64,000 nucleotides of DNA from an uncultured archaeon (GCA_964484305.1 CAZAEI010000002.1:11715-75714); one strand, 5' to 3'. Positions 44,101 to 50,464 are shown, counted from the stretch's first letter. A program made the numbers and translations. The notes: a model not told the origin generated them from the letters alone.

Positions 44101-47100
44101 AGTTCGGATAGTCAGACCGCATGGAGACGTTGTAGTATCCGTAGGGTGTTTCCTGGTCGGGGTTCCAGTTGCACTTGTATACGTTCGCGCCGATGGGGTC
44201 TATTACCGTGCAGTTTGTATCGTAGCTCTCGTCCTGGTTTGACAGGTTGAACGTAACCTGGGTGGTGGTGTTCAGGGTTATGGGCTCCCCGCAGTAGTTC
44301 TGTGTGTAGCCTTGGATTAGTATCGTATCCGCCGCGGTGTAGTTCTCTGAGCCGTCAGGAAGGTCGATGAAGTTCTGCAGGGTTCCCGTGACGTTGAAGT
44401 TCCATGTGCTTGACTGGTCATCCTCGCACAGGTCCGGGTCTTCCTCGGTCGTGACTATCACGTACCAGTCGTGCGCCCCAACCTCGTACTCCTCATTCAC
44501 GAGGGGTGTGGAGGCATTGTCGCAGTCGGGGAAGAAGCTGTAGTTGATGTAGCCAGAGGCGTTAGTTGTCAGCGTGCGGCCGCTGTCCCATGTAGCCCCT
44601 GTCCCGGAACCCACCTTCGTGATGTACAGCTTGACATCCTTTCCTGCCCCTACCGTGCCGCCGATGTTCATCCTTATCCAGACCTCGGTCCAGTTGATTT
44701 CATCGATGTTTCCATCGTCGTAGTAATCGAAATCTATTCCCCTTATCCTGATGTCGCTGTTCGCGGGGGTTTCCCATGCCGCCAGGACGGTTGAATCGGT
44801 TGTCCATGCGGTGGCGTTTCCGGTTCCGCTCACTGAGAAATTGACGCTGCCGTCAATCCAGTCGGAGCCGTTCCAGAACTGGACCTGCAAATCGGGGTCG
44901 TTGTTTCCCTCTGCCGTGGAGCCCGTGTCGTTGTAATCAGAAACGTTCACTATAACCGAGATGTTGTATGTCTGGGATGGCAGCTCCGGGATGACATCGC
45001 TGTAGGTCGTCCAGCCCGTTACACCTTCATCGTCTATAAGGGGTGTATAGGCCAGTACATGAATCAGGTCTATGCCAAGGGTGTCGGTGTCTGCGTCGCT
45101 ATCCTGGTCCGTGTCCATGAAGGTGACGTTCAGCTCGCCGCCGCTTATCAGGGCCGTCACGTCCAGCGTCATGTTGGTTTCAGAGGAGGTTATGTTGCCA
45201 ACCTCGGTTGAGTAGGCATAGACGGTGAAGTTCTCCTCGGTGGCTGCTGAAGAGTTGGCTGAGACGTTCAGGTAGTAATATTCATAGCCGGCTGCTATGT
45301 CATCTATGATGTAGGTCACGTTCAGTACGGAACTGCCGGCCCCGGACGACTCAATCGAGAAGGTATACCCGTTGGCTTCGTTGATTTCCAGGGTGAATGT
45401 CTTGGTTCCGGTGGTGTTTGGGGGGTTAATAAACGTTTCCTCAACGCATGCAAAGGCAGCAGCCCCATCATTGGCAGGACCGCAGTAATTATTGAACCTT
45501 GACGTGCCTGAGGGCAGCCCGCTAAAGATTACATAGCCGTCCTTGAACGCGCAGTGCAGGACAAGCTCGTTGTCGGTGGTTGTGGTGACCGAGGGCGCGT
45601 CAATGGAGACACGTGTTCCTGTAAGCAGGTTGGTCGCGAACTGGCCCCAATCGCCTACGTTCTCGTAAAGCAGGATTATCCCGAGCTGTTCTTCTGAGCC
45701 TGTCCAGGACCATGTATAGGTCTTGGAGCCGGCGTTATCCTCGTCGTCCTGGGAAACAGCCTTAGTGTAAATCCATACTGCAGGGGCGGAAGAAGCCACT
45801 GTCCCGTCTATTGGCATTGAGCCCGATTCCTCCAATGTCCAGGTTTCGGTGCTCGGGGGGGTTATAGTTAAAGCCGGGGTGTTGTCATCAGTTGCCACAA
45901 TAGCTACCATGAGGTCTCCCACCAAGGCAGAGGCAGGAACGGTAATGACTACATCGTTTCCAGCAGAATTTTCATCAAACCCGTCAGACTCAGAATCCTT
46001 GTATGCCGGGACGGCCCCGCCTGATGTGGTCTCGTTAATCACCCTGAAGCTCTTGTCATAGGTCTGGGTGTCGGTGTAGTCGCCTGAAACAGAAACCCCG
46101 GATATTATGTCTTCGTCACCGGAGGAATCCATGGTGTAGTATGTGCTGCTTTCCTGCGCCGCCTTCTTCTGTATCTCTCCGGATTCCTGGTCTTCTGTTT
46201 CATTGTAGGTTGTTGCGTATCTTACAAGAACCTCCAGCGTCAGGTTTTCCGCGTCGGCGCTCCTGTTCGTGTTCACATTGTGGCCGGAGGCGACCTCGAA
46301 CTCGTAATCAAGGTCTACGTCGCAGGGCAGGCTCAGCGGAACATCAATCTCGGTTTTCCTGTCAAGAGCAACCGGGACTGAATAAACGTTGTAAGGATAC
46401 TTTGTTACAGTCAGCCTGAAGGGGGAATACGTGACGTTTCCCGTGTAATTGTATTCGGCGTATGTGACTGCCTGCTGGGTTATTGTCCCGTCTGCTGACG
46501 TGTTTATCTCAAAGATGGTGTTTCCAGAAGTGTCGTTCAGCTGGACTGTCGCATTTTCAATGGGAGCTCCCTCTGAATCCGAGACCGTCACGTCCAGCGT
46601 GTACTTCCTGAATAGCGTGCCGTTGTCCGCCTTCCAGTTGAAGTCCCAGGTATCGGACTGGATATTTATGAGCGAGCCGTTGCCTGACCCTGCGGAGAAG
46701 CCGTAGCCGTCTTTGTTGTTGACCTTCTTGTCGCTAGTTTCATTTACGACCGAGTCATTCACTATGAAGTCAACGTACGATGTGTATGTGGCGCAGTCGT
46801 CGCTCACGGTGAAGACATCGGTTACGTAGTTTTCTCCATTGGAGTAGTTTATCTGGATGGCCTGCATGTAATCGTATATGTTGCTGAGCGTCCTGTTATC
46901 GGTGACCGTTATGTTGCCGCCGTAGAAATACACGGGCCTCACGGTAGTGCTTGAATAAGCAGAGTCGAATGTGACAAGTCCTGTTTCATAATCAACACTA
47001 TAATTGGCCTTTGGTATAAGACTTGAAGGGATAAACCTCGTGGCACTCCAGCCTGTCACGTCAAGCATCTGGAGGTGCTCTGATTGCGTAACCGGGTAAT

Positions 47101-48460
47101 TGTCGAGCTGTATCGCATCATTGCCATCAGGAGTCTGGTCCTCTGAAGTAGAGCTGTAAAAATGGCCCGGAGGATTGTAGGTTATTCCTGTCTGGCTGTA
47201 TGCATTGCTTTCATTCAGCGCCGTACAGAGATTGTCATAAAGAACCGTCTGCAACGTAACGGGGGCTTCCATCGAGATTAGCGTCTTTGAATACTTGTAG
47301 CCATACTTTCTCACATAGAATTCATGAGGCGTGTAATCAGCTTTCCGTATATCAGTATCTGCATAAACGTGCAATCTCCTGAAATCCAGAATCTGTTCTT
47401 CTATTGTGCCATTAGGATATGTTTCATTGATGCCAACGAGGTTGCCGTAGAGATCTCTCGACATGGCTGTAGCATTTTCTATTTTGCTGCCGTAGAGGTC
47501 ACCCAGTTCTATATTGAATGAACTCTGCCTTAAGACGTATGTGTTGTCAGTGGTTCCGGAACCCTGCAGGTCCATTGTGGTCTCATCAATCACGGAGTCG
47601 ATGGCTATGAGATAATGGTTGTTCAACCCGACATCATAGGTATTGTCATAACCAAAATAGCCCCTCACCGCGCCACTGGAGTGCCAGCATTGTACACCCC
47701 TGTCTGCGTCATGCACCAGAAGATTATTGAACGGGGTTTCTGCCATCCCCATCAGCTCTATGGCGGCAAATCCGTTATAGAACGCGTAGTCATTCACGCT
47801 GGCATTGGAGCCAAAATAAAAAATACCATGATCGGGGTCTTTAGAAGCCGACTGGTAAGTAACTCTATTAACTTCACCATAAGTGTTCAAATCAGCGTAT
47901 GGGCCTGTGTCAATGGCATTAAAATCATCCGCGGTGTCTAAAATAGTTGCTACGGTATCATAGAACTTCAGGGAGTTGTCGGTACTGCTGGCACCTCCGC
48001 AAATGGCACCTGTATGGCCCGTGGTTGCTCCGTTTCCGCAATAGTTTGATGTCAGGTCAAATTCAAGAGAGCTTCCGGACTGGGGCATGCCGGAAGCGGT
48101 AAGCTCACCGAACTGTATTGTACTACCGGTATTTACTTCTATGTATGCATCATCAAGGAGAATGTGCTCGTTGGTGGACTTGAAGTACGTGGGATTGGTG
48201 CCTGACTCGTCGCCTATCTCAAGATTCACGTGGAGTTCGTAATAGTTTTGGCTCCCCGGCCTGGTTATATAGGTATCTGAGCAGGCAAGGTCGATATCAT
48301 AGAACGTACAGGCGTTGGCCTCATCAATTGCATCATCGCACGGGTCACTGCCGCCATCGGCCTCAATCCTGATTGGCGTAGTGCAGTCTATGTCTGCCTT
48401 TACCGTGACCGGGAGGTAGAGTAGAAGGAATATGAGTATCAGGAGGTATTTCTCTTTCAT
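8135..48460 (-). CDS. Giant 13,441-aa single-pass surface protein: signal peptide, tip domain, about 25 three-domain modules, CARDB-like stalk, TM helix and a C-terminal cytoplasmic HerA/FtsK-like ATPase.
   Basis: The reading frame is unbroken over 40.3 kb. SD GGAGGTG lies 5 nt upstream of ATG 48460. That ATG overlaps the TGA of the upstream gene (ACATGA), which suggests translational coupling. The ORF-track start at 48502 adds 14 aa with no SD support. The domain grammar is consistent along the whole length (see sub-features). Confidence 0.9.
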   Translation of the reverse strand: MKEKYLLILIFLLLYLPVTVKADIDCTTPIRIEADGGSDPCDDAIDEANACTFYDIDLACSDTYITRPGSQNYYELHVNLEIGDESGTNPTYFKSTNEHILLDDAYIEVNTGSTIQFGELTASGMPQSGSSLEFDLTSNYCGNGATTGHTGAICGGASSTDNSLKFYDTVATILDTADDFNAIDTGPYADLNTYGEVNRVTYQSASKDPDHGIFYFGSNASVNDYAFYNGFAAIELMGMAETPFNNLLVHDADRGVQCWHSSGAVRGYFGYDNTYDVGLNNHYLIAIDSVIDETTMDLQGSGTTDNTYVLRQSSFNIELGDLYGSKIENATAMSRDLYGNLVGINETYPNGTIEEQILDFRRLHVYADTDIRKADYTPHEFYVRKYGYKYSKTLISMEAPVTLQTVLYDNLCTALNESNAYSQTGITYNPPGHFYSSTSEDQTPDGNDAIQLDNYPVTQSEHLQMLDVTGWSATRFIPSSLIPKANYSVDYETGLVTFDSAYSSTTVRPVYFYGGNITVTDNRTLSNIYDYMQAIQINYSNGENYVTDVFTVSDDCATYTSYVDFIVNDSVVNETSDKKVNNKDGYGFSAGSGNGSLINIQSDTWDFNWKADNGTLFRKYTLDVTVSDSEGAPIENATVQLNDTSGNTIFEINTSADGTITQQAVTYAEYNYTGNVTYSPFRLTVTKYPYNVYSVPVALDRKTEIDVPLSLPCDVDLDYEFEVASGHNVNTNRSADAENLTLEVLVRYATTYNETEDQESGEIQKKAAQESSTYYTMDSSGDEDIISGVSVSGDYTDTQTYDKSFRVINETTSGGAVPAYKDSESDGFDENSAGNDVVITVPASALVGDLMVAIVATDDNTPALTITPPSTETWTLEESGSMPIDGTVASSAPAVWIYTKAVSQDDEDNAGSKTYTWSWTGSEEQLGIILLYENVGDWGQFATNLLTGTRVSIDAPSVTTTTDNELVLHCAFKDGYVIFSGLPSGTSRFNNYCGPANDGAAAFACVEETFINPPNTTGTKTFTLEINEANGYTFSIESSGAGSSVLNVTYIIDDIAAGYEYYYLNVSANSSAATEENFTVYAYSTEVGNITSSETNMTLDVTALISGGELNVTFMDTDQDSDADTDTLGIDLIHVLAYTPLIDDEGVTGWTTYSDVIPELPSQTYNISVIVNVSDYNDTGSTAEGNNDPDLQVQFWNGSDWIDGSVNFSVSGTGNATAWTTDSTVLAAWETPANSDIRIRGIDFDYYDDGNIDEINWTEVWIRMNIGGTVGAGKDVKLYITKVGSGTGATWDSGRTLTTNASGYINYSFFPDCDNASTPLVNEEYEVGAHDWYVIVTTEEDPDLCEDDQSSTWNFNVTGTLQNFIDLPDGSENYTAADTILIQGYTQNYCGEPITLNTTTQVTFNLSNQDESYDTNCTVIDPIGANVYKCNWNPDQETPYGYYNVSMRSDYPNYYENLTIKQPPETFYLTTSPSLTEANATPRQDSWALEHNFSVRIADNLDDTVNVTLQEQILGQSWYDVESRNCTNCSDNAEGYTTFDFNKTYPCSGYAGQWMKFRFRAYDSEGNTIYTDSVTQYYGEDDTFELQKSDVNVTYIYGNETKAQPTQPTEFGVQVYDLDNLSRTFSGYETPLVKFDVTTNGAGSSLVMINSSLTNSSGHANVTFLPDGQFYDGNQTWYGYIGSDDACYRYNKTENLTVEIELNWPPRYENETINGYVGEESTSVSQGWGEGWTFNVTVYDPESDTVDVELQLNTGSGWFKLDNQTCTECSYWETKNFTISLDCGNVSSLAQYRFIITDNESNQNTTTARSFTTEEDDVTYLVIWGHENVTNRSADLLNLSLHVRIMDENGSYAQPNTTMYITKVGTGGGASWDSGHLLTANDTGEVLYDFFPECDNASTPTENEEYEVGLHEWYVKVEDSNTCYKATQSSTYNFTVYGSLYPAIDLPDGSQNFSIGEIVLLQGFIENYCEEPMAVNTSTQISYMLNTTDYGDYCSPISRIGANVYKCNWLPWQEAEYGYYNVTMWANYSYYYENTTISPDIFYLTTSPILKAGNVTPRISSWETEFNFTVNVSDNKGDTVNVTLQYQVVGQGWQDYTTQSCTNCSDNGALNYTQLNWSLTLPCSGYAGSYMKFRFNATDEEGNMKISDPINPGQYVDNDDTFQAEKSDVNVTYVYGNESYTSLTTSTEFGVQVYDLDNLSRTFSGYETPLVKFDVTTNGAGSSLVMINSSLTNSSGHANVTFLPDGQFYDGNQTWYGYIGSDDACYRYNKTENLTVEIELNWPPRYENETINGYVGEESTSVSQGWGEGWTFNVTVYDPESDTVDVELQLNTGSGWFKLDNQTCTECSYWETKNFTISLDCGNVSSLAQYRFIITDNESNQNTTTARSFTTEEDDVTYLVIWGHENVTNRSADLLNLSLHVRIMDENGSYAQPNTTMYITKVGTGGGASWDSGHLLTANDTGEVLYDFFPECDNASTPTENEEYEVGLHEWYVKVEDSNTCYKATQSSTYNFTVYGSLYPAIDLPDGSQNFSIGEIVLLQGFIENYCEEPMAVNTSTQISYMLNTTDYGDYCSPISRIGANVYKCNWLPWQEAEYGYYNVTMWANYSYYYENTTISPDIFYLTTSPILKAGNVTPRSGPWSGNFNFTVNVSDNLGDTVNVTLQYQVVGQGWQDYSTQSCTNCSDNGALNYTELNWTGVTYPCSGYAGQLMKFRFNATDEEGNMKISDPINPGQYVNNDDTFQIQKDNVSIIYISGNNTNSSLSIPAEFIVRLYNNDKQTYDLSPASTVTFNVTTNGEGGDYTTAGTNTTNATGYATFYFLPDDYYITGIQDWIAYVSTTETCYSYNVTDVQKVNTQVHAPLLENENVSMLSGGWGYEWNFSVDVYDEYDNVTVQLWRSTFPVGAPWTLMDEDYYNNSGNWETLNFTPQFTCDNIGLWYYKFNATDEYQNSNTTTPSSYRNFTITQDPVVFEYQQGDDSTANRSGDQTDTLILRIWDGNGTELLDFNVTFYVETNSYEYDSGINITTNSSGHAVYDFNASCTPTRYEVGVQNWKAETDGYRCYADNSSTEYDLTVMGDFNVSFDWPLEENKTVGDRIRFEASIWDDCQAELGGATVRFNASGLTEDECSAVTSPVTGYYKCSETPQGLDTTGYRQGWYNATLNATKDYYYMNETVKTNMSNGGFFYLYIYPLLEDPAVVPTSEGWSRKFNFSVNVTDDPLDNVTVQLWHSSSGGTGGEWLQLDGDLYCEDCNDTVLNWTDINFSCSYKGTVNFKFNASDIDVKTDSEESSFTVEADDVIVEYGGSGNDTEINRSADTITLSTKVNDTDANEYVPSGVYGRLWVTTDGSAYSDLGLITTDADGFFNETFPPGGDECDYDVGIQKWKMQTSDTCYASQNSSEHYVAVYGDLYADIIQPTGLQQFSESETVPIVLKGNLTDDCSQGVSNAEVNFRLDGPMTYWCPESGYVTNLTGSIYQCDWNSSGKAGGDYNITMFAYKSYHNNDTDLEEDAFHLSVPIQILNEMAIPDTPDDAPWGRNYTFSVNVTHINDVYLCLWERPAGLSFTEVECRNVTVPTGKTELFYHQYSVSDYDTSATREWKFNASERDTGASPQTTSTHTLTLTPDNLTMGTLYDEDGKPEVFVEAPSHMVEDLGNCPSGRYQHIIVFNDEEDPVNVTGMVFFEGDPSETTSMMETGATFSVHSYSESAAPDYANRDSGDLYWYEWGWSNGTIGVTIQPGEYHVFWAQVTPLGEQSFPYRPIGSGYYNSTVYLGDGQAVGSGNYDMGMLPDHGGALHFRLDLEQGDSLLSDEDSDYCSSPYNWFTRENRTANRSDILDVLIPVWLEAENSGRGEILSFSTNVTFPRGWNYILGTAKVNGRGVQKITHYLINGVDRLVWTFDGDDPSWIDQYKDNQSMGQAYLTFQVKSACPYEGAYVWEINATNIQQEDYDENHTDYVNLTTFCFAPNREDTPKNTQVERQGSATTPLFVDVFDIILGEYADSSTTEQVFYNVTTDGSVYTNQHQGGEMKVLTTDSAPHMYANFSFNPGCSPFYQAGVQNWFAYTKSDAYDYHKDNVNSSSIYNVTIIGQLEPNITIPYGDYLKGETINITVDVVGDCNEDITTATINVTLKSQDTLNTYECTNVTNWGGGSYSCYWNSSVIGFDYANYTIYANASDVAYYNNGTDIETDAFSVNPPVSKINVTAMYVPDEIFQNRSFVVNATVTVTEKASEQVNATLEVPLDWQVLPSRTQNLSAMGIDDSKDVGWEVYVNSSYEVSYVINVSVNNTEEQEDRNITTVLAYRFLDLGCPASAIHYNTSGDSEDDVTTQFCSVDVTLGASLDDSSLEADLTAGQEPEESVEAAWPCEGGDYRIGNLTAYWEGSSGPSRARVYAYNGTDWFNVLHSQDIGDNAEEQPVSIMQNQIAPNGTGYCIIRIENAGGNGLMLDALFLQLYYRPSVSVIDIKPAIAGDETSGMEKGDGNLNVTVRVQNTLNASYTVNITLNITNSSGGVIYSQTQTDVPLDKGTTVYENFTEIDTSSWGSGTKYLNAFVDYNSSQAKRREQFEFRNVSFSVLGPDYMCPSTTEELNVTVSHLFADRVYYNISVSVPAGWTVSPQYQEANLTSTSSFYFNLTSSGSPTGSSLVNTTVSYTYPDSYAKSIEHEKTIINDYVPILEVTRESPASLSNYTDFDVRLFVHNKGCVPAYDVRLNETTPYGWTVYDASINLGGTLNGQIISWDLGEIGVNFYKNPSYTIKAHFLEDQVGPFYWNSTWKDNVSSSYQANQTLYFRVRTKWEEHMRFELNTSSFEGRSAELNATTNYTLIIENVGEASSAGDWNATLYIPPSCTPDYLGGGSWDSGNRTISWNVSSDLAQGQTQKFNFSMNCTETGPLVLLAAAISDQRGEASYYNSTNYNCSGRSCFSQNTHTFQNPGMPYESLSELDFLINYTRTGSNMTIGESIVNMTGDTGYVIPVWQNFTFNESSGELWVNRTVTDDESSEFNNQQHQIGVYSHSDATMQADGSIIIKQISYSWKYGKKFNEQEGLFLKVKPIHYPLLENPDVNPYSVGWGEGHNFTVDVYDSGDNVTVYLWEAFSASGPWTLKDSQLYSSPGSWATLNFTEHHNCSEVGTKYYKFNATDEFGYSNETSSGSFYIDYDDLVITEIQGDGSVANRSGSQIDTLILYLQDENGSFIYDVNITFYVTTSGFNWDDGTNEPTNDTGYATYDFDAKCSSPKYEVGSHQWKGEVTGQSCYNDKVSSLYDMTIMGDLNVTLLDPSNTNYTEGDTVTFYGYLTNDCDDLLQGYPLEFRPWHDTYIEYLDAENLPGGYYRYYWSTLGGKPGGWYNITINATELTQDTYYSDQKDYIYPNVTEPIHAFYLEIAPRLREANVTPRQDGWSYQRNFTVNASDEAEDTLTAYAWQRESTGEWEQITPSRQCTSCDNATMNWSASYTCSDLTGETATMYFKFNATDGTLSYTTSVASGDYVGDDNSFILERQDVILEHSYGDETAVNRTGPGSATPLILNVTDTDRNQVAYPPAATVVFNITTDAGPGFLLEGSNTTNDTGEVTYYFNPNCSYHVGKQYWQGFTQDGCYKTNQSGTFNVTVIGNIVLSASAENSTYHQEENITVWINVTDDCGTFISVSFLNVTLRYNESIAYNCTNLYEWNTGNYSCNWSTTKQDVTGYYDIVMEASNPPNYNNGTKEEIHDFMLISYENNNPMLSNENVIPEGWGTLTNFSVDVEDPDFDNVTVWLWEGDSGSGPFTLIDSQTCWDCEPGETLNFSTYHNCQDAQAPKYYKFNASDAQGGTDSTPTNQFQVEPDNVTVYVREGSLAQVNRSLDQLSTVVIIQVYDSDNLTYVGQDVNTSLFVAYSGTSYDSGLTNTTNSSGHARFYFNPNCSYTVGDRNWIAGTYGDQCYDDETNSPPQTMRIYGDLVINFTNISCPGGFCFDGDNVTIRANLSDECGTLLNESNAIINVTHDTYNSECDVNDEGDGYYNCTREVAGTPGGWYAVHARVDRGFHNPEYIVNSTGFFHQIGPYLYAEQVTPSNVPWGNNPAKSTFTFNINVSDDDDNITLRLYMTKTPPDWGLPKDSQSVQDYLNQTVTLSEQFTACADVGTWYWKINVSDTSDLNDTTSGSDTVEVTNVNVTFSILQGNDSVVQRYGSNKTLLHVRVINNYTGGVEGMPGNTGYFWVTTTTGGEFSQNHQDGLMTNTTKNDGNLTMYFNPGCSGPHYWAGPQEWKAGVTFSSCYNNANSSEFNVNITGILTPNITYPIGVIPFLKGDPVPIWGDVEDDCGPISGIDVDFSIDNFWTPPAPNDWANGSYNTTWDSTEGSIGRHDVNMTVTNESYDVNQDWEEDALILVVKPQLRNPFTDVGIGGADGWGHNFTFKVEYCDQDGEDTVNISLWVSSSTLGPWTFIDSTDVSGCTWSNVTFHHNFSCQDYLENIQYFRFVANDTYNYSNETQSQLFHLQRDNVSLYSYYTSASQVSREGDETIFFSIFVNDTDRGGDVGAGVNGSFWVSINSTTGLLDSGHPRETNISGALNYTFNATCDYPTGSQYWFSGALDDQCYDDENDTTQHYFDILGQLKLSLDQPPNMSEFNVTDDILMNWTVFGDCESNISGVTNTVEIYQPLNDSYCSGWNEEPNGVYNCTWNSTSQPEGNWTINITAERGTYNSNETSWLYRFWLENRDPVSSQATADPMSGGWGATYMYNITIDDPEADETVCTLYTNTTGSGWVERGYDVVQWTGNCTILVSDFISDDMGPTQFRFRINDTFNLYETDNLTGPALSEDNVTVTFIHGNHTGGSEGSVQRSGQDYTNLIVNVYDEDRGNYPQGVNVTFWITYSGTSKDSGNTTTTDSSGNATDSFDPGCGPKYGVGNQTWLAGITDSSYINKNTTDNYTVYITGSLTNQVQIPNGTEHLRGTNVTVRANVTDDCQDVITGAGVTYQMRNVSLYECVYKSEEGSGWYNCSFNTSDMEPMGYNLTVNSSKTDHASESLTLEYVETETSFWVETEPCMSGVVAIPWVGGWSETFNFTVNVTDEDYDQVIVYGYFRTEEPAQGSWNPLGAGSDSGSGINWTAFFQHQFGPGYVSTILSVMFNATEDDEWWFNTTPVNFTVEEDDVNYTHTQGNETTVNRVGNDNKTLIIYVWDQDDPAHPPASTNNPEGRFWITTNASDPGSWDSGTSRQVNDTGYIKYEFNPDGSCTYGVGKQLWKVGLTTSSQYYKESNSSETWNITITSEFTPDLITPLNKSFRKGIDPVLLSANLTDLASGCGLVSDANVSFYIHRSGYSDYYCQAAETSNPGIYNCTIPAAETNNPGWVYGWYNMTINASREFYANISETFNDTFYIGSDPVLSITGTGVTPFSEGWGRTFNFTVDVYDLDGNNVTVRLYKKLFSESDYTHLQTKECAPCSSDQYNPTVMTFVVDTFTCSDIGSSNFKFNATDTHDFTDESDIKSFTVQKDSVNYQARTQNNTDTVRQGTDTILISYYVYDTDRGNLALPADVNGTVYVTSNEWDWGNPLYNQTNDTGHLNYYLDTNCSHKFGYHIFSTRIENDDCYNPDSEMFWPGNRTFNVYGQLLNNIDLPAYQEPFNVTDPVPVRLNTTSDCSLDRPDEAIINNSYITIQVISPYGIWHDCTPVENETDPTQGYYNCTWDSTDHREGWWSIQLNSSRAYFNDNRTHLQDWFQLENLNSTWSQQQVVPQADGWTRPFNFSVNITDPDSDTVNCSLYINRYDGQGWVFRGNMTLHDPSGVVGQTCWVELRDFTGDDIGENTYMFYIQNGEPSNYFNTTNYTGPTLEVANTSIAFITPNGTTVNMTGDTELLTVLVNDTDNYTLQNWFPPGVNVTFWVTYNDSSLNVTLNQTNQTGHANYLFEPDCSFSIGPQEWWANVTDSHYEMNTTGHNLTIYIYEELAIQVEQPLGIEYLNGTNVTFRFNITEYSCGRNVTGVDLSRLNITAIHEDTGQNFTCDYKSEEGQGWYNCSMNTSGLPAQEYTVMIIAGKDYYNDVNETHEYAESTSGFFVESEPVLTEPTMNSTDYDGDTGANGSYMEPRNLSVRVTDPDGDNVNVYFYRRMWTGSGWDDWTEIGMSWCSSCNNSLVYYYDSYVYSYEYHLGTWQYKANCSDQANYPRSGGVSYSDEVGPFNYTVEKNDINITVYDGDGAWLWRNGSAYYVLSTKVKNVDDNFQELAGGEANGTVYITKDHANLENVTDPGNPPKNTNYGFFNYSFHPDGDDDATSNCEYDIGVQKWRVFVHNNQRYKDENSSLLNITLRTFLNGTIHSPIDLAPYVQEAGINITFNFSLFDECLDPVAGANEKNITLDGPANYFITNSTIDDEGDGHYTHNRSASDTAQTPPNYNTTAQAWKQYYEMVTLYANDSFTVGTRPQLQYINPIVDPSVDGWGYQSGFSFFAQCKDADNDVMNVTLWKRATPNDEWGLLDYNSCQGTNWQNDATFTITTFDCGDISPSGWHSQFKINATDEDGYGVELGPQNFTVQSDNVTVIQKQGYGVDVYRNGSGGPGVELFQVLINDTDAGNVPVPQGVNGTFWITSTGSDFDTEWTNTTNGQGYLNLYFNPNCFYKFGAQQWIGGVWNDQCYDVENSTSQAFNVYGQLLNNIDLPAYQEPFNVTDPVPVRLNTTSDCSLDRPDEAIINNSYITIQVISPYGIWHDCTPVENETDPTQGYYNCTWDSTDHREGWWSIQLNSSRAYFNDNRTHLQDWFQLENLNSTWSQQQVVPQADGWTRPFNFSVNITDPDSDTVNCSLYINRYDGQGWVFRGNMTLHDPSGVVGQTCWVELRDFTGDDIGENTYMFYIQNGEPSNYFNTTNYTGPTLEVANTSIAFITPNGTTVNMTGDTELLTVLVNDTDNYTLQNWFPPGVNVTFWVTYNDSSLNVTLNQTNQTGHANYLFEPDCSFSIGPQEWWANVTDSHYEMNTTGHNLTLIIMDELLNNITYPDYTQFNKGVNITLNATIQDSCGSNVSDASVYFIIESELYGDKYYCNDTQTLGDGQYSCEFNSSGMKAGWYDVTMASNRTYYNTNHSYDYHTFSVETAPVLVFAGYGVDPAGGGWGESFNYSVNVSDEDGDTVRVYAYERKYGDASWGSPLIAPNGEDPYQECQPCDNTTLTFTIDNFDCANGLGDNLTRVREFKFNATDDPPGPDDTDEIGPRNYTMTKNDASIEYVQGNDSWVYRPSGTITLQLRIYDLVKQQYANIPNERSIVNITNMTGNWISSPVNQSNPQGYITYEFDPGCSPKYDTGPQLWRGYIEGTPSNPGCYAENVSDNFTVNIWTSPLNYTLTIPDGEHYRRSLDNITIRGRVYDECAGEIGGVNNATVTFEAISPACNFECSDDTGNDGGGIEDEFESGGTRGWYNCTFWGPDNTSNWAGTCLNVYNTTLYATKNFYNSSSALVDNESFVLTQVPSIRWWTNPHTIDPIGGGWGAKHTFHYYFEDDEGASDSVNITLWKSVGVDNWTLINYTIRNNPNEQLFTFVHTFNCGEQGTNYYLINVTDKWNDTNETTTENWDMGKDRVYTYAGASDDEVDREGQETAYLNVYFSDLDKGYTNVVAGVDGKIWVTFNGSDTGTWDDGHANQTSGDGYMRIWFDPSCDPLYEVGSHDWKGGIELDECYENYAGNSSSTTLTVYGRLNSTIDTPQQGNSSTVGDMLYSRYNVTDDCSQLVNETTTTIEFKHPTSSWDSHTPADEGDGWYNYDLDTSFHKGGWYDVRINASKTYYRPDNSSFWDDWFYLENTPPAISEVNVTPGEGPWGGVYTYSVKIWDTQQDNVTCELWVSTDGGSSYYKKNWTTIWGGRDYCNLTVGDALDGTEFNCSDMGTDNSFHFMIDDETNVNYTDNITGPNLTADTAMITYSFGNESVIDRDDSSSNHLATYTVYTNDTVRVGHVLTGTDITFWTTYNNSVFDGGNLNQTNTSGHALLYFNPGCSGPKYEVGPQEWKAGITDSCYAAVNTSQNYTLEIWGSLYGDIEEPGQDEEYERGVENISTKGLVEDDCGDTKTGVNVTFNFTHVDDSDVYPCLYYTIEGTIYYRCKRNTTGMKARWYNNTMYSSMAYHYSNATTWESHFEVVTKPVLTQETALTNPGGWGERFHFSVNLTDEDYDEVEVKLYAKKQSDSLWGVPKNSTIADTAVGEIINLSWRDDPIDCGNIDDWEFYFKATDNRSPPFTNETGPGNFTIERDNAYMLLEQGHEAYIWRNGSDNYQLIMRVWDNDTNNYAETGTIGATNATFWVTTNHSLDTWDVGKYEFDNGSAYILYDFMDEVPQPECDYKVGPHYWKAGVGGLKEDVCYKPINSTEYTVYLNSTLIMTIHEPHGQGILWGTPLDVVGYIEDDCNPVENSTVQWVFSRKTTQWPENQDQANQSQGWYNYTWTETYKRTDWYNITMDADKEYYGPNQTLREDAFFIALAPDIQDAGIDKELGGWGENFYVWVVITDADSNYNNITLWKRQWNDSQGDWDEWLLINQTWEYDLGDDEVHFDQHFACADMGWNQFRFNSKDEFNFTDDSNKTVTDDSLQLKNTSWSEAPIHDASGQADSGFNHTETTDEAGFFETFNITIHNQNGTVMYFNLSVNGVQVADNQSVQDGQNATVDAISGGASFTLPGGQDINFTVTDGQGGSGEANYTTYLNQSMLYQSFSTSHYIDAFYDVERFNVTLQNENGSTLYFDLEVNGITVAQNLSVAPGENASYDARRQGGLDFTPPGSQQISIAVTNGSGGNASARFSLYLHYIAGVHEFYLQEDNVTVYLCDGTDCLPASNTTVRRVGAQNAFLNIRIEDTDAAFDKYPDGVDTGFWITEDYENFTVFYDCTTTGAGYCDVNHNPGCATPAGIQKWKLETLDSCYQPLNSSTKNLQVFGQLYANYTTPVDGDVLNRNLTYTLNATVNDDCGTYINYSTLTWQNESWDLINTTDNGSLGFYDRSWYIGESYELGPDILRINTTKTHHDKGTNQTDILIYGWAGIDTMWPPNGTEFDAGAMNTWITCHVSDINTGQSIESYNVDFYKNGVYNASDDTDWQGNATWYWYTEWEDAGPYNISCKISDDDVLYYNVSAGERMSNITVNRQLIIDEITKSYGTIYRNDSYDPHETEICVHVNDAQIGNASGANVSFYNNSGFIRNCTTDQWGRCNITYNVTDNIAPGNYTIHINATKAGISDSDTVETYLDVIGVLILNITSPVDESKHPKTGTVDLDVNITDEAGSVISGCDVEWWNETGMLTDMQTYPNYPLTGQEAGNRTITSNATKQYYAAGNNSVLITIEAVVDVYYVSPANYTLLPYPVPFDVFCQVRYAEAAGGGPVEDYDVELYYYWESAGLPWVFINNFTTNPSGYINHTFDPGQKGNLNFKCNITDNTSRLIQAGISEAQGIITIRDVNLPVITNTSIVPDTSIEANLNYTNITANVTDDVGINKVWADILLPNQTHENVTMTNESLGGDLYRVSYVPVLSGLYHVWIWAQDTGPEYNNASLYAGTFDVWGKITGLIELNKTILMSGITQSHGAQFNLSVNFTNLGPPTGYYVELRSMDDPNDTLVINDTYQDIGNLSVNETYTWPLTVDVPAGTPPMLIRVMIYANWTDPDLTLNSTLNWSDVFVSSNPILDIVEDELTNTVPHESTLYYVGNFTVYSSGNDAVDDIDITMVGGNLSSECPECVVDIIPAAWGRLEAGYQFSSSLYIDIPAGQPPGDYWTVVRASASNTEPDDMILTVNVPENTSWTRTPGSLSSYENPILALLNASAAIGNITTTNIGNSRIAIKVYRTENGSDMVLADPEYFELGKQVSRNTTISYIVPVAKPKGMYYVKLILRNETADPQEWITDLWLNVTDTPPLIDDVNATPLVFEAGYENVSISANITDNFEVSDAWIRVVRPTDCGYINESKMIHSATSDSGFNYTEQVNSLYDASMLYFNITIENNNGTEISLNLAVNSLLVADNISIPSGQSATIDAVAGGASFTLPGYQHINMTMDGNASYDARLNYSVLDVSAYTEQMNGTAKPFYHATYNSSLEGYHDLYICANDTAGLSGCTSMIQLYGAGTTHLIMTTNVSEVNITGITLSDSEDFDFNLTVMPDWARLFNLSVTLGLPGSWSAAPDTFNFSDMLKHETKSNESRVTVATSTWPGNYTVNLTANWTELNGYTNGTNLTSILVMVQPNPAIDILESTLPYFVRSGGTGNKTMNIYSIGNVNATNITYSCIWGEVCENFTVGFNPLNISVLEPGQGQLVNITITVPPLYKAGEYAGTVEALEAGGSNDTVFIVLTVPINLSWYHDPEDITINLSHETSGNMGYITVHNTGNARLILEVIQSGNGTPYIPLDKDELDLDIASSDTIMVNYTLPHIDDITTYQSLIRTENLSAGEPTYQETWVTVNAFPFSLDLTHPTQAEPTKNVTASDAIQVEVNVTYGGEPLNHSVEFNLTLFNATGSWHLNITSANYSNYTGLWHLNFSAPNISENKGYDLNVSALYVNASIWLHDIEMKAVIYIDRVAPEVAIEVPPRVPANSTAYIYINATDSGGVERAELEVTFPDNSTMDFNATFVEKLGDLYRFVVAMNYTSQVGIYHVNATAWDLSGNWNYSDKSFEIFPGVMWSGDSVNMEKLHKPHFHLNFTFLLAGTSYEAYNFTTEGATGHYNETLDMRAYDINITFRNETVILYDSELVYDVYNPVLFGKIPGVKMPQKSLKGYYIYTQPVNYSYASLELDCEECYIEGECELSDFMLQNLGIYQCDDWVPMEGCQGTWVAIASTVNSTFYSIAANMSSLNGAFVLAEWICGDDVCESAKGESNAGCPGDCPIVIPEVPKPEEGGGGGGGGAAAEAVTVSGPIEVKTTLIYVTLSQGEYEIHSMEIINNRAGSITANFTVEGLIWDMVQIESPSISISGRSVGVSKIKLYTLPTTQPGVYTGDIITNVEGFGITHRTPVTIKVEKIPSPLLDVQVKSLTKSVAPNEEFRYEVTLVNMGETATIEDIIVQYTIKNLNTDEIMTIFKETVAVEQSLTFRRNITIPSDTPYDRYVIEANVTYWHGNKFAFAADAFDVTELPPVIAALRAIFWNWLTYVILFFVVPAAYGGRYGYRYIKLKKKKKTRYIFPMDFKKLPQAGPNAFVVGKVAETDMLAYFDMTQLQTHGISAGSTGAGKTVSSMIVVEEMLKRNIPVIVFDPTCQWTGFLRPCRDQRMLKLYPRFGLKPGDARRYKGRITRITDPNTAIDIRNYMNPGEITVVLIDKMEPAQLDIFVRKTIADMFKIPWPESPKIKLFIVYDEVHRLLPKYGGKGGYVALERGCREFRKWGIGLWLISQVLMDFKGAIRANISTEVQMRTKYTGDIRRVTQKYGFQYASTTTKLRTGTGMVQNAEFNHGKPYFIEFRPLLHDTGRLSDKDIDEYIRYDTEVTSLMQKAKELKARGIDTTDIEFELKLARDKISQTMFTMSKTYIDSVKNRIRKLGG
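8681..8707 (-). other. Walker B motif LFIVYDEVH (hhhhDE).
   Basis: A hydrophobic strand ending in D-E, 116 aa after the Walker A motif. Confidence 0.8.
9056..9079 (-). other. Walker A motif GSTGAGKT.
   Basis: The minus strand reads ggc tcc acg ggc gcg ggc aag acg. Confidence 0.9.
9260..9322 (-). other. The single C-terminal transmembrane helix of the giant protein (IFWNWLTYVILFFVVPAAYGG).
   Basis: This is the only long hydrophobic segment after the signal peptide. It is followed by RYGYRYIKLKKKKKTRY, which places the C-terminus in the cytoplasm by the positive-inside rule. Confidence 0.8.
21632..22636 (-). repeat. Exact intragenic duplicate, copy 1 (1,005 bp, 335 aa), offset 3,105 bp from copy 2.
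   Basis: Identical to 24737-25741. Duplicated shadow ORFs confirm this (22029=25134, 22106=25211, 22204=25309). The first mismatches are at 21631/24736 and 22637/25742. Confidence 0.9.
24737..25741 (-). repeat. Exact intragenic duplicate, copy 2 (partner of 21632-22636).
   Basis: The protein block NVYGQLLNNIDLPAYQEPFNVTD...EMNTTGHNLT occurs twice verbatim. Confidence 0.9.
40596..41893 (-). repeat. Exact intragenic duplicate, copy 1 (about 1,298 bp, 432 aa), offset 1,734 bp from copy 2.
   Basis: Base-for-base identical to 42330-43627 when the two stretches are read side by side. Duplicated shadow ORFs confirm this (40933=42667, 40962=42696, 41099=42833). The flanks are similar but diverged. 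Coordinates are good to within 1-2 nt. Confidence 0.85.
42330..43627 (-). repeat. Exact intragenic duplicate, copy 2 (partner of 40596-41893).
   Basis: As for copy 1. The protein block GVQVYDLDNLSRTFSGYETPLVKF...ILKAGNVTPR occurs twice verbatim. Confidence 0.85.
48395..48460 (-). other. Sec-type signal peptide of the giant protein (MKEKYLLILIFLLLYLPVTVKA|DIDC).
   Basis: A basic N-terminus, a hydrophobic core and a V-K-A small-residue cleavage motif. Confidence 0.7.
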
Positions 48461-49710
48461 GTTCGCACCTCCAGCTTCTGGCACAGGGAGGCGTCCGCGC
48501 ACTCGTAGGCAACATCCTCCCTTTCAAGGGCATGCATAACGACTGCGTTTTCCGGGAGCCTGAGTGTTGTGGTCGGGACCGGTGCCTGAACGTCAAGGGT
48601 CTGGAGCTGGCCCCTGCTGAGCATCTCTGTGCCAACCCCCCTGGTTGCCTGAACTTCAGGTGTCTGGGGCTGTTCATTGCTGATTCTCTGTATATCGAAC
48701 CTCCAGCCGTCAAAAACAGAATCATCGTGCAGGTAGATGTTGTTCTCTGATGTGCTGAACACCTTGTACTTGGTCTCGTACATGGCCAGCCTGCCGCCTG
48801 CGTTGACCTTGATGGCCGAGCTGTGGTCGAGCTGGTCCTGCTCGGAAACGTTGACGTCAATCATCGGCCCGCCGTAGCCGTAACCGCCCTGCTCATCGGT
48901 GAACAGGCCGAACTGGAGGCCTGCGAGCGGCATGACCTCCCAGGGCTTCAGGATATTGATGTGCTCAAAGCTTGACACGAACCATGTCTCGTTCAGGCCG
49001 TCCCCTATCATCAGGCCGGAATGTACGATGAAGAAGCTGCCGTAATTCTCGATTCTGCTCCAGTTGTTCTCCTTGTCGGTGTCATAGATGTCGGAGAGCG
49101 TGCAGGGGTTTTCTGTGGTGCAGCGTTCATTGTTTCCGACTATCGTTATTGTGTCAGTTTCCGGGTCGTATGATATCCCGCTTGGGGTTTGGTAAACCTC
49201 ATCCCCGGATGGGATGACCTCTATGCCTGCCTGCTCCTGGGAGGGGTTCAGGAAACCCCTGCCGTTGAAGGCAACCGAGAGAGTGTGGATTCCTGAAAGG
49301 TCAGTGAGATGAATGTTTAGGGTGGCGTGGCCTGAGGTGTCTGTTAATTTTGACCCAATCAAATTGCCATCAAGGTAGAACTCCGTTTCAGCATCAGGAA
49401 GGGTATCGCCGTTATCCAGAAAGAGTGTGACGGGAAGGTCCAGGGTTTCGTTGTCATAGAAAACAGTTCTTTCGAGGGGGAGTTCGATTGCGGTGTTTGC
49501 CCGGATTTCTATGGTTCCGGCTGCCTCTATCGTTATAGTCTGAGAAGAAGGTTGGGTTATGTTCTCGAATTCTCCACCGGAGAGGTTGGCCAGGAAGTCG
49601 CCTGTGAGATTGGTGATGTTGGTGGCGTTCTGGGCAATCACCACCCCAGAGACCAGGAGCAGAAAAATGGCCCCTATCAGCACCTCTGACTGTGCAAGGC
49701 TGCTCTTCAT
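48457..49710 (-). CDS. Secreted protein of about 417 aa with a signal peptide, an Ig-like domain and a paralogue of the giant protein's N-terminal tip domain.
   Basis: MKSSLAQSEVLIGAIFLLLVSGVVIA|QNATNITN. The ATG at 49710 is preferred over the TTG at 49737 used by the ORF track. Its stop overlaps the giant gene's start (ATGA). CTTENPCTLSDIYD...LMIGDG..ETWFVSSFEHI...LQFGLFT aligns with CTTP...CTFYDIDL...LEIGDE..PTYFKSTNEHI...IQFGELT in the giant protein. Confidence 0.8.
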   Translation of the reverse strand: MKSSLAQSEVLIGAIFLLLVSGVVIAQNATNITNLTGDFLANLSGGEFENITQPSSQTITIEAAGTIEIRANTAIELPLERTVFYDNETLDLPVTLFLDNGDTLPDAETEFYLDGNLIGSKLTDTSGHATLNIHLTDLSGIHTLSVAFNGRGFLNPSQEQAGIEVIPSGDEVYQTPSGISYDPETDTITIVGNNERCTTENPCTLSDIYDTDKENNWSRIENYGSFFIVHSGLMIGDGLNETWFVSSFEHINILKPWEVMPLAGLQFGLFTDEQGGYGYGGPMIDVNVSEQDQLDHSSAIKVNAGGRLAMYETKYKVFSTSENNIYLHDDSVFDGWRFDIQRISNEQPQTPEVQATRGVGTEMLSRGQLQTLDVQAPVPTTTLRLPENAVVMHALEREDVAYECADASLCQKLEVRT

Positions 49711-50413: not shown

Positions 50414-50464
50414 CTGGGATTTTCTCTGCTTTAGATGAAATAGGTTCGCTATATCTGCCACCAA

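What the first reader, a model, noticed from the sequence alone, without database searches (positions are those of the whole stretch)
46360..49124. Lower-GC distal tip of the giant protein with a paralogue in the upstream 426-aa ORF
The first 700 codons or so of the giant gene (about 46.4-48.4 kb) are visibly more AT-rich than the rest of the gene. They encode a non-repetitive region. It starts with a Cys-rich cap (DIDCTTP...CDDAIDEANACTFYDIDLAC). A Gly/Asn/Thr-rich region follows that looks like a parallel beta-helix. A carboxypeptidase-regulatory-like beta-sandwich closes it (TLDVTVSDSEGAPIENATVQLNDTSGNTIFEINTSADGTITQQ, about 46.35-46.62 kb). The segment at 48098-48385 aligns with 48898-49124 of the upstream secreted protein (CTT..PCT..DI.....LxIGD....T.F.S..EHI....LQFG..T). 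Beta-helix plus CarboxypepD_reg is an arrangement typical of glycan-binding or glycan-cleaving tailspike-like proteins. The tip may therefore be the target-recognition end. The soluble paralogue could be an alternative or competing tip or an assembly factor. The composition shift suggests the tip was acquired or exchanged separately.
Basis: partly seen in the sequence, partly recalled or inferred. Interest (0 to 1): 0.6.

Follow-up and report, generated by a model that had tools for sequence, protein, structure and literature searches.

The report
Swapped head of giant archaeal surface protein
The far end of a 13,441-residue surface fibre of a tiny symbiotic (DPANN) archaeon is a conserved phage-fibre-like "head". 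About 480 codons of it were swapped in by recombination from a lower-GC relative, which suggests the organism changes what it sticks to in the way phages change tail-fibre tips.

Summary
The N-terminal about 1,000 codons of the giant gene (8135-48460, minus strand) are lower in GC, and the shift lies wholly at third codon positions. Codons 23-502 have GC3 0.515; the rest of the gene has 0.774 +/- 0.033 (z = -7.8).

This low-GC3 core (window 46954-48393) is a mosaic block:
- It is about 91% identical in DNA (dS 0.33-0.46) to metagenome contig L045, whose flanks are far more diverged (dS 0.9-1.07).
- Against L001, the closest relative elsewhere (flanks dS 0.5-0.8), it is saturated at synonymous sites and only 54-57% identical in protein.
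- Trees of the upstream ORF and of the tip disagree (AU p = 0.024 and 9e-6).

So the tip was exchanged by recombination.

The paralogy is real and longer than reported (profile-profile E 1e-27, 153 columns). However, the upstream 417-aa ORF is the split-off N-terminal part of what is a single polypeptide in most relatives. It is not an alternative tip.

The AlphaFold model (pLDDT 85) shows four parts: a short-strand beta-solenoid, a transthyretin-like sandwich, an alpha/beta domain and a second sandwich. It resembles uncharacterised phage structural proteins; the beta-helix assignment is plausible but unproven. A role in host recognition is inferred, not shown.

The parts
8135..48460 (-). Giant gene, 13,441 codons. 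Order of parts: Sec-type signal peptide, head, neck, about 12,000-aa repetitive stalk, TM-like segment (residues 13040-13065), cytoplasmic HerA/DUF87-type ATPase (residues about 13102-13221).
   Evidence: ORF list; translation; Pfam DUF87 E 2.3e-6, 28.3 bits against a cut-off of 23.2; hydropathy scan.
48395..48460 (-). Signal peptide MKEKYLLILIFLLLYLPVTVKA. The ATG at 48460 overlaps the TGA of the upstream ORF (ATGA). A GGAGGTG Shine-Dalgarno lies 5 nt upstream.
   Evidence: Sequence of the junction. The same arrangement occurs in L001, L005, L013, L017 and L023.
46954..48393 (-). Mosaic (recombined) block, giant codons 23-502, which is the low-GC3 core (GC3 0.515, GC 0.472).
   Evidence: nt identity to L045 is 84-96% inside the block and 70-86% / 72-77% outside. 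dS is 0.33-0.46 inside and 0.92 / 1.07 outside. Against L001, pS is 0.77 (saturated) inside, and dS is 0.5-0.8 in the flanks. Trees disagree, with AU tests. GC3 statistics.
47561..48394 (-). Head domain 1 (giant residues 23 to about 300): Cys-containing cap (two short strands plus a helix), then a short-strand beta-solenoid of about 10 coils. It is poor in N-glycosylation sequons.
   Evidence: AlphaFold model m8bec40e71a6c, pLDDT mostly 85-95. Weak Foldseek tailspike and pectate-lyase matches. Sequon density 0.4 per 100 aa against 3-5 in the other domains, and the depletion is family-wide.
47843..48382 (-). Part of domain 1 (giant residues 27-206) that is paralogous to the C-terminal domain of the upstream ORF.
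   Evidence: hhalign probability 99.8%, E 1.3e-27, 153 columns. Secondary weak matches of the upC domain to the tip start in fused relatives.
47243..47539 (-). Head domain 2 (residues about 308-406): transthyretin/CnaB-like beta-sandwich 1.
   Evidence: Model strands 286-384. This region is homologous to the second sandwich and to the same family of 400-500-aa proteins.
46625..47212 (-). Head domain 3 (residues about 417-612): conserved alpha/beta domain with the invariant motifs QTGITYNPP, PVTQSEH, VYFYGGNIT and YDYMQA. The 3' recombination breakpoint lies inside it.
   Evidence: Model; invariant columns; no Pfam, PDB or PHROG match.
46292..46615 (-). Head domain 4 (residues about 616-723): CarboxypepD_reg / transthyretin-like beta-sandwich 2.
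   Evidence: Pfam PF13620 E 4e-5 to 9e-5, below threshold. Foldseek 5aq0 TMt 0.76-0.78, rmsd 2.4-2.6.
44966..46138 (-). Neck or 'mid' segment (residues 776-1165, GC3 0.64). It has no counterpart in any relative's giant gene. Residues 819-1042 (45335-46006) form a phage-type domain.
   Evidence: No hit in fetched loci or in the own genome. 45-61% identity to 294-330-aa proteins on phage contigs.
48457..49710 (-). Upstream ORF (417 aa). Order of parts: N-terminal hydrophobic helix, NxT-rich linker, Ig/FN3-CARDB-like domain (residues 70-166), upC short beta-solenoid domain (residues 179-342; 48685-49176), disordered linker, small C-terminal element. It is the homologue of the N-terminal section of the fused giant proteins of relatives.
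   Evidence: Model m44b702ba5c44; Foldseek gives Ig hits only; fused homologues; conserved synteny in L001-L005.

Best explanation
The region encodes the membrane-distal head of a giant surface fibre of an Aenigmatarchaeota (DPANN) archaeon. The fibre is anchored at its C-terminus and resembles the SPEARE-type giant proteins of nanohaloarchaea.

The head (residues 23 to about 723) is a conserved module of four domains:
1. a cap plus a short-strand beta-solenoid;
2. a transthyretin-like sandwich;
3. a novel alpha/beta domain;
4. a second transthyretin-like sandwich.
The same module sits on giant proteins in about a fifth of related genomes.

Shown:
- The low GC is a purely synonymous-site signal.
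- Its core, codons 23-502, is a block of separate ancestry. It was brought in by homologous recombination with a divergent, lower-GC3 allele.
- The same allele sits in a more distant genetic background (L045), while the closest relative (L001) carries a high-GC3 allele only 54-57% identical.
- Next to the block, the neck (residues 776-1165) has been replaced by sequence absent from relatives. That sequence includes a domain otherwise found on phage contigs.
- The upstream 417-aa ORF carries a paralogous copy of the first about 160 residues of the solenoid, which is an ancient internal duplication.
- The same ORF is the orthologue of the N-terminal extension that is fused to the head in most relatives. 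This lineage therefore split the gene in two, with an ATGA overlap and a new Sec signal peptide.

Inferred:
- The head is the contact-making end that binds a host-cell or other surface ligand.
- Swapping head alleles changes or renews that specificity, as mosaic tail-fibre tips do in phages.
- The upstream protein probably still works with the head at the fibre's far end.
For: - GC3 only.
- Orthologous genes of window and L001 have equal GC3 (0.74-0.80) except the tip (0.515 against 0.773).
- Identity and dS step functions against L045.
- The reverse pattern against L001.
- Incongruent trees. upC gives (win,(L001,L004)) and AU rejects win+L045 at p = 0.024. The tip gives (win,L045) at 100/100 and AU rejects win+L001-type at p = 8.7e-6.
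- The window tip branch is 3-8 times longer than those of L001 and L005.
- The head module is conserved in 27 loci from genomes and metagenomes and in 12 of 61 relatives.
- High-confidence model, pLDDT 85.3, pTM 0.78.
- Fold similarity to phage structural proteins, E 5e-17 to 2e-15, TM 0.34-0.49.
- Transthyretin-like sandwiches.
- Paralogy.
- Fused homologues.
- Topology: signal peptide, TM-like segment and C-terminal HerA-type ATPase.
- Family-wide lack of glycosylation sequons on the solenoid.
- Analogous architecture and proposed adhesion role of nanohaloarchaeal giant proteins (PMC10266531).
Against: - No donor lineage was found. The nearest alleles other than L045 are 57% identical or less.
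- L045 is a single 2.3-kb, probably low-coverage contig with a frameshift and a 108-nt gap. The key comparison therefore rests on one short sequence.
- The AU test on the up-ORF side is only moderately significant (p = 0.024).
- The 3' breakpoint falls inside a domain, not at a module boundary, so 'cassette' overstates the modularity.
- No binding or enzymatic function was tested, and no beta-helix family matches by sequence.
- The tip has no sequence relatives in IMG/VR or in deposited phages. The phage link of the head is therefore at fold level only.
Confidence: 0.65

Rival explanations
1. The tip diverged in place, with no exchange. It evolved fast under diversifying or relaxed selection in the window's lineage and drifted towards AT at silent sites.
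For: The (win,L045) tip clade sits inside the window/L001/L005 clade on a long stem (0.67 substitutions per site). This could reflect a burst of change. dN is high against L001 (0.29-0.38).
Against: - Selection on the protein does not lower synonymous GC.
- dS to L045 is three times lower inside the block than in its flanks.
- The allele is shared with a lineage whose upstream ORF is more distant than L001's.
- All neighbouring genes kept GC3 equal to their L001 orthologues.
Confidence: 0.1
2. The mosaic is a metagenome assembly chimera. Reads of a co-occurring strain were joined into the window's contig over the conserved head.
For: The genome is a 58-contig MAG. Several related strains occur in sister samples. 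Reads could not be checked.
Against: - The frame is intact across both boundaries.
- The first 345 or so residues occur letter for letter in another collection entry, P0164.
- The upstream ORF product is on 12 contigs.
- L045 independently shows the same up-ORF to low-GC3-tip junction, with the same GC3 step.
- A chimera would need a third, unsampled strain.
Confidence: 0.08
3. The head is an enzyme rather than a binder. It would be a tailspike-like depolymerase whose beta-helix cleaves a host surface glycan.
For: Solenoid-like strand pattern. Weak Foldseek matches to WceF, the Fri1 gp49 tailspike and pectate-lyase/pectinesterase phage proteins (probability 0.3-0.66). Conserved acidic and His positions occur in the solenoid (HDAD motif).
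Against: No Pfam beta-helix, pectate-lyase or glycoside-hydrolase family matches any of 24 members. A PDB sequence search found nothing. The best fold matches are uncharacterised phage structural proteins, not enzymes.
Confidence: 0.2
4. The upstream 417-aa protein is an alternative or competing tip, or a chaperone for the giant protein's head.
For: It shares the cap/solenoid domain. It is translationally coupled by an ATGA overlap. It is always syntenic with the giant gene.
Against: In most relatives it is covalently part of the same protein, N-terminal to the head. This argues for a co-operating distal module, not a competitor. It lacks the sandwiches and the alpha/beta domain of the head.
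Confidence: 0.15

Closest known systems
Giant membrane-anchored 'SPEARE'-type proteins of Nanohaloarchaeota (SVXNc_0300, 9,409 aa; BNXNv_0298) (PMC10266531)
   Same: Both have an N-terminal Sec signal peptide and an enormous ectodomain of repeated beta-sandwich modules. Both have a single TM segment near the C-terminus, a cytoplasmic FtsK/HerA/VirB4-class P-loop ATPase and a helical tail. Both belong to DPANN episymbionts and are strain-variable. A role in host contact has been proposed for the nanohaloarchaeal proteins.
   Different: The head here is a beta-solenoid with two transthyretin-like sandwiches and a novel alpha/beta domain, not an Ig domain plus two WD40 propellers. The ATPase here matches HerA/DUF87 in Pfam. 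Sequence homology to the nanohaloarchaeal proteins was not tested. Recombinational head exchange and gene fission have not been described for those proteins in the paper read.
Mosaic receptor-binding tips of phage tail fibres and tailspikes (for example the P22/Sf6/HK620 tailspikes and T-even fibre tips; from general knowledge)
   Same: A conserved attachment part is joined to a distal part that is exchanged by recombination. The exchange gives incongruent phylogenies and composition steps. The folds are beta-helix plus beta-sandwich. The head model matches phage structural proteins by fold.
   Different: The carrier is a cellular 13,441-aa membrane protein, not a virion. The breakpoint lies inside a domain. 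No sequence relatives of the head occur in IMG/VR or in deposited phages. Trimerisation is unknown.
Gram-positive pilins and MSCRAMM adhesins with CnaB/transthyretin-like domains (BcpA, SpaA, TIE; Foldseek hits)
   Same: The two sandwiches of the head have this fold. Both are surface adhesion proteins built from tandem sandwiches.
   Different: Identity is only 8-10%. There is no sortase signal and no isopeptide motif was examined. The match covers only two of the four head domains.
Uncharacterised 400-500-aa proteins with the same cap-plus-sandwich layout (for example OGP72153.1, Deltaproteobacteria bacterium RBG_13_58_19)
   Same: They match both the first about 110 residues of the head and its sandwich domains (E 1e-7 to 1e-15).
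   Different: They are stand-alone small proteins, some of them bacterial, with no known function and no giant stalk.

Membership tests
Right-handed parallel beta-helix (pectate-lyase fold / tailspike) | Sequence match to a beta-helix family (Pfam Beta_helix, Pectate_lyase_3, NosD, PbH1 repeats) | tested here: not met
   No such family matches the window protein at E <= 1 or any of the 24 head homologues. PDB profile search found nothing.
Right-handed parallel beta-helix (pectate-lyase fold / tailspike) | Fold: coils of three short strands, about 22 residues per turn, with an N-terminal capping helix | tested here: inconclusive
   The DSSP pattern of both models fits. Foldseek gives only weak tailspike, WceF and pectate-lyase matches (probability 0.3-0.66), while the strong matches are unnamed phage structural proteins. 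Model coordinates could not be inspected, and the domain could not be searched on its own.
Right-handed parallel beta-helix (pectate-lyase fold / tailspike) | Catalytic groove with conserved acidic residues; glycan cleavage | not testable with these tools
   Needs coordinates and an enzyme assay.
CarboxypepD_reg / transthyretin-like beta-sandwich (PF13620) | Pfam match above the gathering score | tested here: not met
   23.3-24.2 bits against a cut-off of 32.3. However, 19 of 24 homologues match, with a best E of 2.4e-7.
CarboxypepD_reg / transthyretin-like beta-sandwich (PF13620) | Seven-strand prealbumin-like sandwich fold | tested here: met
   Foldseek matches: 5aq0 (transthyretin-like domain of carboxypeptidase D), TMt 0.76-0.78, rmsd 2.4-2.6, probability 1.0; 9hfj, TMt 0.81; CnaB2 8bdw.
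SPEARE-like giant DPANN surface protein | Signal peptide, giant ectodomain, TM segment and C-terminal cytoplasmic FtsK/HerA/VirB4-class ATPase | tested here: met
   Signal peptide. TM-like segment at 13040-13065. DUF87/HerA at 28.3 bits, above the cut-off of 23.2. Architecture as described in PMC10266531.
SPEARE-like giant DPANN surface protein | Sequence homology to the nanohaloarchaeal proteins | not tested
   No nanohaloarchaeal sequence was fetched.
Recombinational mosaic (allelic replacement of a gene segment) | Phylogenetic incongruence between the segment and its flanks | tested here: met
   Trees and AU tests.
Recombinational mosaic (allelic replacement of a gene segment) | Step change in synonymous divergence at the boundaries | tested here: met
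   dS 0.92 -> 0.33/0.46 -> 1.07 against L045. dS 0.48 -> saturated -> 0.83-1.4 against L001.
Recombinational mosaic (allelic replacement of a gene segment) | Not an assembly artefact (reads span the junctions) | not testable with these tools
Paralogous domain (up-ORF C-domain = head N-domain) | Significant profile-profile match with the same order of secondary-structure elements | tested here: met
   hhalign E 1.3e-27. Both models show two strands, a helix and then a run of short strands.

The most novel reading that the evidence does not exclude
The far ends of giant DPANN surface fibres may be a shared, exchangeable pool of recognition modules. Heads with a phage-fibre-like fold would be swapped between archaeal lineages by recombination, and neck domains would be taken directly from viruses (residues 819-1042 are 45-61% identical to proteins on phage contigs). 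Episymbiotic archaea and viruses would then draw on the same repertoire to retarget host surfaces. Repeated splitting and fusing of the distal module would add further variation.
Probability: 0.25. Interest if true: 0.8.

Novelty: new variant of a known kind. Interest (0 to 1): 0.55.

Why it matters
How DPANN archaea recognise and hold on to their hosts is largely unknown. Giant surface proteins are the leading candidates, but almost nothing is known about which part makes contact or how specificity changes.

This work defines three things:
- a conserved, well-modelled head module that has no family assignment;
- evidence that its outer half is exchanged between lineages and carries a composition scar from that exchange;
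- evidence that the adjoining neck contains a virus-type domain.

This gives concrete, expressible fragments (residues 23-302, 23-723 and the 417-aa partner) for binding and structural tests. It also gives a marker, head allele against genomic background, for tracking host switching in metagenomes.

Tried and rejected
- tblastn of the head and of the upstream ORF against the own genome found no further paralogue. The second giant gene on contig C1 was among the sequence searched.
- PHROGs and NCBIfam gave nothing for the head, the upstream ORF or the related small proteins. PADLOC was not tried.
- A PDB sequence-profile search gave nothing.
- Whole-model Foldseek against PDB was dominated by the two sandwiches.
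- Foldseek of the upstream-ORF model returned only Ig-domain hits and high-rmsd Nir2 hits, which I regard as spurious.
- The head has no relatives in INPHARED phages or IMG/VR. The neck domain has none in INPHARED.
- A 5' 'translation ramp' was considered for the low GC and rejected. It would cover tens of codons, not 500-1000, and the orthologues lack it.
- An effect of amino-acid composition was rejected, because GC1 and GC2 do not change.
- I first considered that L001 rather than the window had swapped its tip. I rejected this because L001-L005 tip distances fit their flank distances, whereas the window's are 2-12 times too large, and because of the L045 result.
- The contig of P0164 could not be fetched.


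Full report
**What is there**

The window holds a 40,326-nt gene on the minus strand (8135-48460) encoding 13,441 residues. Its ATG at 48460 overlaps the TGA of an upstream ORF (ATGA), and a GGAGGTG Shine-Dalgarno lies 5 nt upstream. The product has these parts:
- It begins with a Sec-type signal peptide (MKEKYLLILIFLLLYLPVTVKA).
- It has a TM-like segment at residues 13040-13065.
- It ends in a HerA/DUF87-type ATPase.

The N-terminus is therefore the membrane-distal end of a very long ectodomain. Earlier notes of this scan place the genome, a 1.19-Mb MAG of 58 contigs, in the DPANN phylum Aenigmatarchaeota. The named relatives found here agree.

**The composition shift is real and synonymous**

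GC falls to 0.46-0.49 between 46.3 and 48.4 kb, against about 0.55 in the rest of the gene. Split by codon position, GC1 and GC2 do not move. GC3 drops to 0.43-0.58 in codons 100-500 and recovers to about 0.8 only after codon 1300.
- Codons 23-502 have GC3 0.515. The other 295 windows of 480 codons in the gene give 0.774 +/- 0.033 with a minimum of 0.690, so z = -7.8.
- Codons 20-1020 are by far the strongest deviation in the gene, z = -13.1 against -4.2 for the next.
- The genome's median GC3 is 0.71.

The shift is therefore not caused by amino-acid composition. It is also far too long to be a translation-initiation ramp.

**The block has its own history**

Homologues of the upstream ORF led to syntenic metagenome contigs. 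L001 is the closest relative:
- Its housekeeping neighbours are 78-90% identical in protein and have the same GC3 (0.74-0.80).
- The upstream ORF is 77% identical and the stalk 77%.
- The head is only 57% identical, and L001's copy has GC3 0.773.

Synonymous divergence between window and L001 follows the same pattern:

| Region | dS or pS (window vs L001) |
|---|---|
| Neighbouring genes | dS 0.6-0.7 |
| Upstream ORF | dS 0.48 |
| Stalk | dS 0.83 |
| Codons 22-502 | saturated, pS 0.77 (0.84-0.91 in codons 150-502) |

A 2.3-kb contig from a sister sample (L045, found through protein P0014) shows the reverse pattern.
- Its upstream-ORF part is 70-86% identical in DNA to the window.
- The stretch 48393-46954 is 84-96% identical.
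- Beyond 46953 identity falls to 72-77%.
- The matching dS values are 0.92, then 0.33 and 0.46, then 1.07.
- GC3 is low over the same stretch in both sequences.

The trees agree with this. The upstream ORF's C-domain groups the window with L001 and L004, and an AU test rejects window+L045 (p = 0.024). Head residues 23-278 group the window with L045 at 100/100, and an AU test rejects window+L001-type (p = 8.7e-6).

The low-GC3 core is therefore a recombination block. It was introduced from an unsampled, lower-GC3 relative whose head allele belongs to the same sub-clade. The 5' boundary lies at the gene start or signal peptide (about 48.39-48.48 kb). The 3' boundary lies at about codon 502, inside a strongly conserved domain.

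In-place fast evolution cannot explain the lower dS to L045.

**Beyond the block**

Codons 503-775 are also more diverged from L001 than the flanks are (dS about 1.4).

Residues 776-1165 have no counterpart in any relative. L001, L005, L013, L017 and L018 share about 1,000 other residues at that position. Within the window's unique segment, residues 819-1042 are 45-61% identical to a family of 294-330-aa proteins. That family occurs on a contig with a P22-type portal gene and on three IMG/VR viral contigs.

Several relatives also show GC3 mosaics at their N-terminal ends (L016 high; L018 and L024 low; a low stretch after the head in L001). The distal 1,100 or so codons thus look like a hot spot for exchange.

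**The head**

A whole-library HMMER search, pattern scans and a genome search showed that residues 23 to about 723 form a conserved module. It occurs in giant ORFs of many Aenigmatarchaeota and in MAGs labelled Undinarchaeota and Methanosarcinales. It was found in 12 of 61 related genomes, so its distribution is patchy.

An AlphaFold model built on 24 sequences is confident (pLDDT 85.3, pTM 0.78). It shows, in giant-protein numbering:
- Residues 23 to about 300: two short strands and a helix, then about ten turns of three short strands each.
- Residues about 308-406: a beta-sandwich.
- Residues about 417-612: an alpha/beta domain carrying the most conserved motifs.
- Residues about 616-723: a second beta-sandwich.

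The sandwiches match transthyretin-like and CnaB domains (5aq0, TMt 0.76-0.78; Gram-positive pilins). Against predicted viral structures, the whole head matches unnamed phage structural proteins and a Syn5 structural protein (E 5e-17 to 2e-15, TM 0.34-0.49). Tailspike and pectate-lyase matches are weaker.

No Pfam beta-helix family matches any member. The beta-helix reading is therefore plausible but not established.

The solenoid is depleted in N-glycosylation sequons across the whole family, at 0-2 per 100 residues against 2-6 in the other domains. This fits either a bare interaction surface or an oligomer interface.

**The upstream ORF**

Its model (pLDDT 74) has these parts:
- an N-terminal hydrophobic helix;
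- a disordered NxT-rich linker;
- an Ig-like domain (residues 70-166);
- a well-predicted domain (residues 179-342) with the same order of elements as the start of the head;
- a small C-terminal element.

Profile-profile comparison of the two families gives probability 99.8% and E 1.3e-27 over 153 columns.

More important, in about a dozen relatives and in P0015 the homologue of this ORF is fused in frame ahead of the head, separated from it by an extra domain of about 110 residues. The split form, with overlapping stop and start and a new signal peptide, occurs in the window, L001-L005, L013, L017, L023 and L040. The upstream protein is thus the detached outermost section of the ancestral fibre. 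It is not an alternative tip.

**Function**

No function was tested. The proposal below rests on four observations:
- the topology of the protein;
- the phage-fibre-like fold of the head;
- the sequon-free solenoid;
- the recombinational turnover of the distal end.

It also rests on the close architectural parallel with the giant proteins of nanohaloarchaea, for which host adhesion has been proposed (PMC10266531).

I propose that the head is the ligand-contacting end of the fibre, and that allele exchange retargets or renews its specificity. A depolymerase activity of the solenoid remains possible.

**Novelty**

Mosaic recognition tips are well known in phages and bacterial adhesins. Giant DPANN proteins with C-terminal ATPases are also described. 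New here are:
- the head module itself, which has no family assignment;
- evidence that it is exchanged between archaeal lineages, leaving a composition scar;
- the phage-type neck domain;
- the repeated fission and fusion of the distal module.

I rate this as a new variant of a known kind, with moderate interest.

Noticed in passing
window 45335-46006 (giant residues 819-1042): A domain of about 220 aa inside the giant protein is 45-61% identical to 294-330-aa stand-alone proteins. In L051 it forms the N-terminus of a 1,223-aa protein. These occur on phage contigs: L048 with a P22-type portal, and IMG/VR UViGs L049-L051. No relative's giant gene has it. It is probably a virus-derived insertion.
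   Followed up: partly
L001:11405-14400 (its giant residues about 800-1300): The closest relative has its own low-GC3 stretch (0.32-0.44), just after a normal-GC3 head. That region is conserved in L005, L013, L017 and L018 but missing from the window.
   Followed up: partly
window 49620-49710 and 50350-50420 (N-termini of the 417-aa and 244-aa ORFs): Both upstream proteins and their homologues start with K-x-x-x-(G/A)-Q-(S/A)-(E/Q)-(I/L)-L, a hydrophobic stretch, then AQNATN. This resembles archaeal class III (prepilin-like) signal peptides.
   Followed up: no
head alignment A3, model residues 1-280: N-glycosylation sequons are depleted on the solenoid in nearly all 24 homologues (0-2.3 per 100 aa) but frequent in the other head domains (2-6.5 per 100 aa).
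   Followed up: partly
genome contig C1:63819-102408: A second giant gene (12,863 codons) lies in the same 1.19-Mb genome. It has no match to the head, but it shares repeat modules with L001's post-head region.
   Followed up: no
L008, L012, L014, L010, L007, L016 (between the up-ORF-like part and the head): Fused relatives carry an extra domain of about 110 aa (GENWTVRF...LEFxGLYCGE...) that the split lineages lack.
   Followed up: no
L045:1461-1510 and opposite window 47522-47629: The contig with the window-type head has a frameshift and lacks 108 nt relative to the window. This is either a low-coverage assembly error or a decaying copy.
   Followed up: no
L016, L018, L024: Other relatives also show GC3 steps at the N-terminal end of their giant genes. 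In L016 the head is 0.73 against a stalk of 0.55. In L018 the N-terminus is 0.22-0.35 against 0.5-0.6. Exchange at this end may therefore be recurrent.
   Followed up: no
P0044 / OGP72153.1 and about 100 similar proteins: A large family of 400-500-aa proteins, including one from a Deltaproteobacteria MAG, shares the head's cap region and sandwich domain. It has no family assignment.
   Followed up: partly
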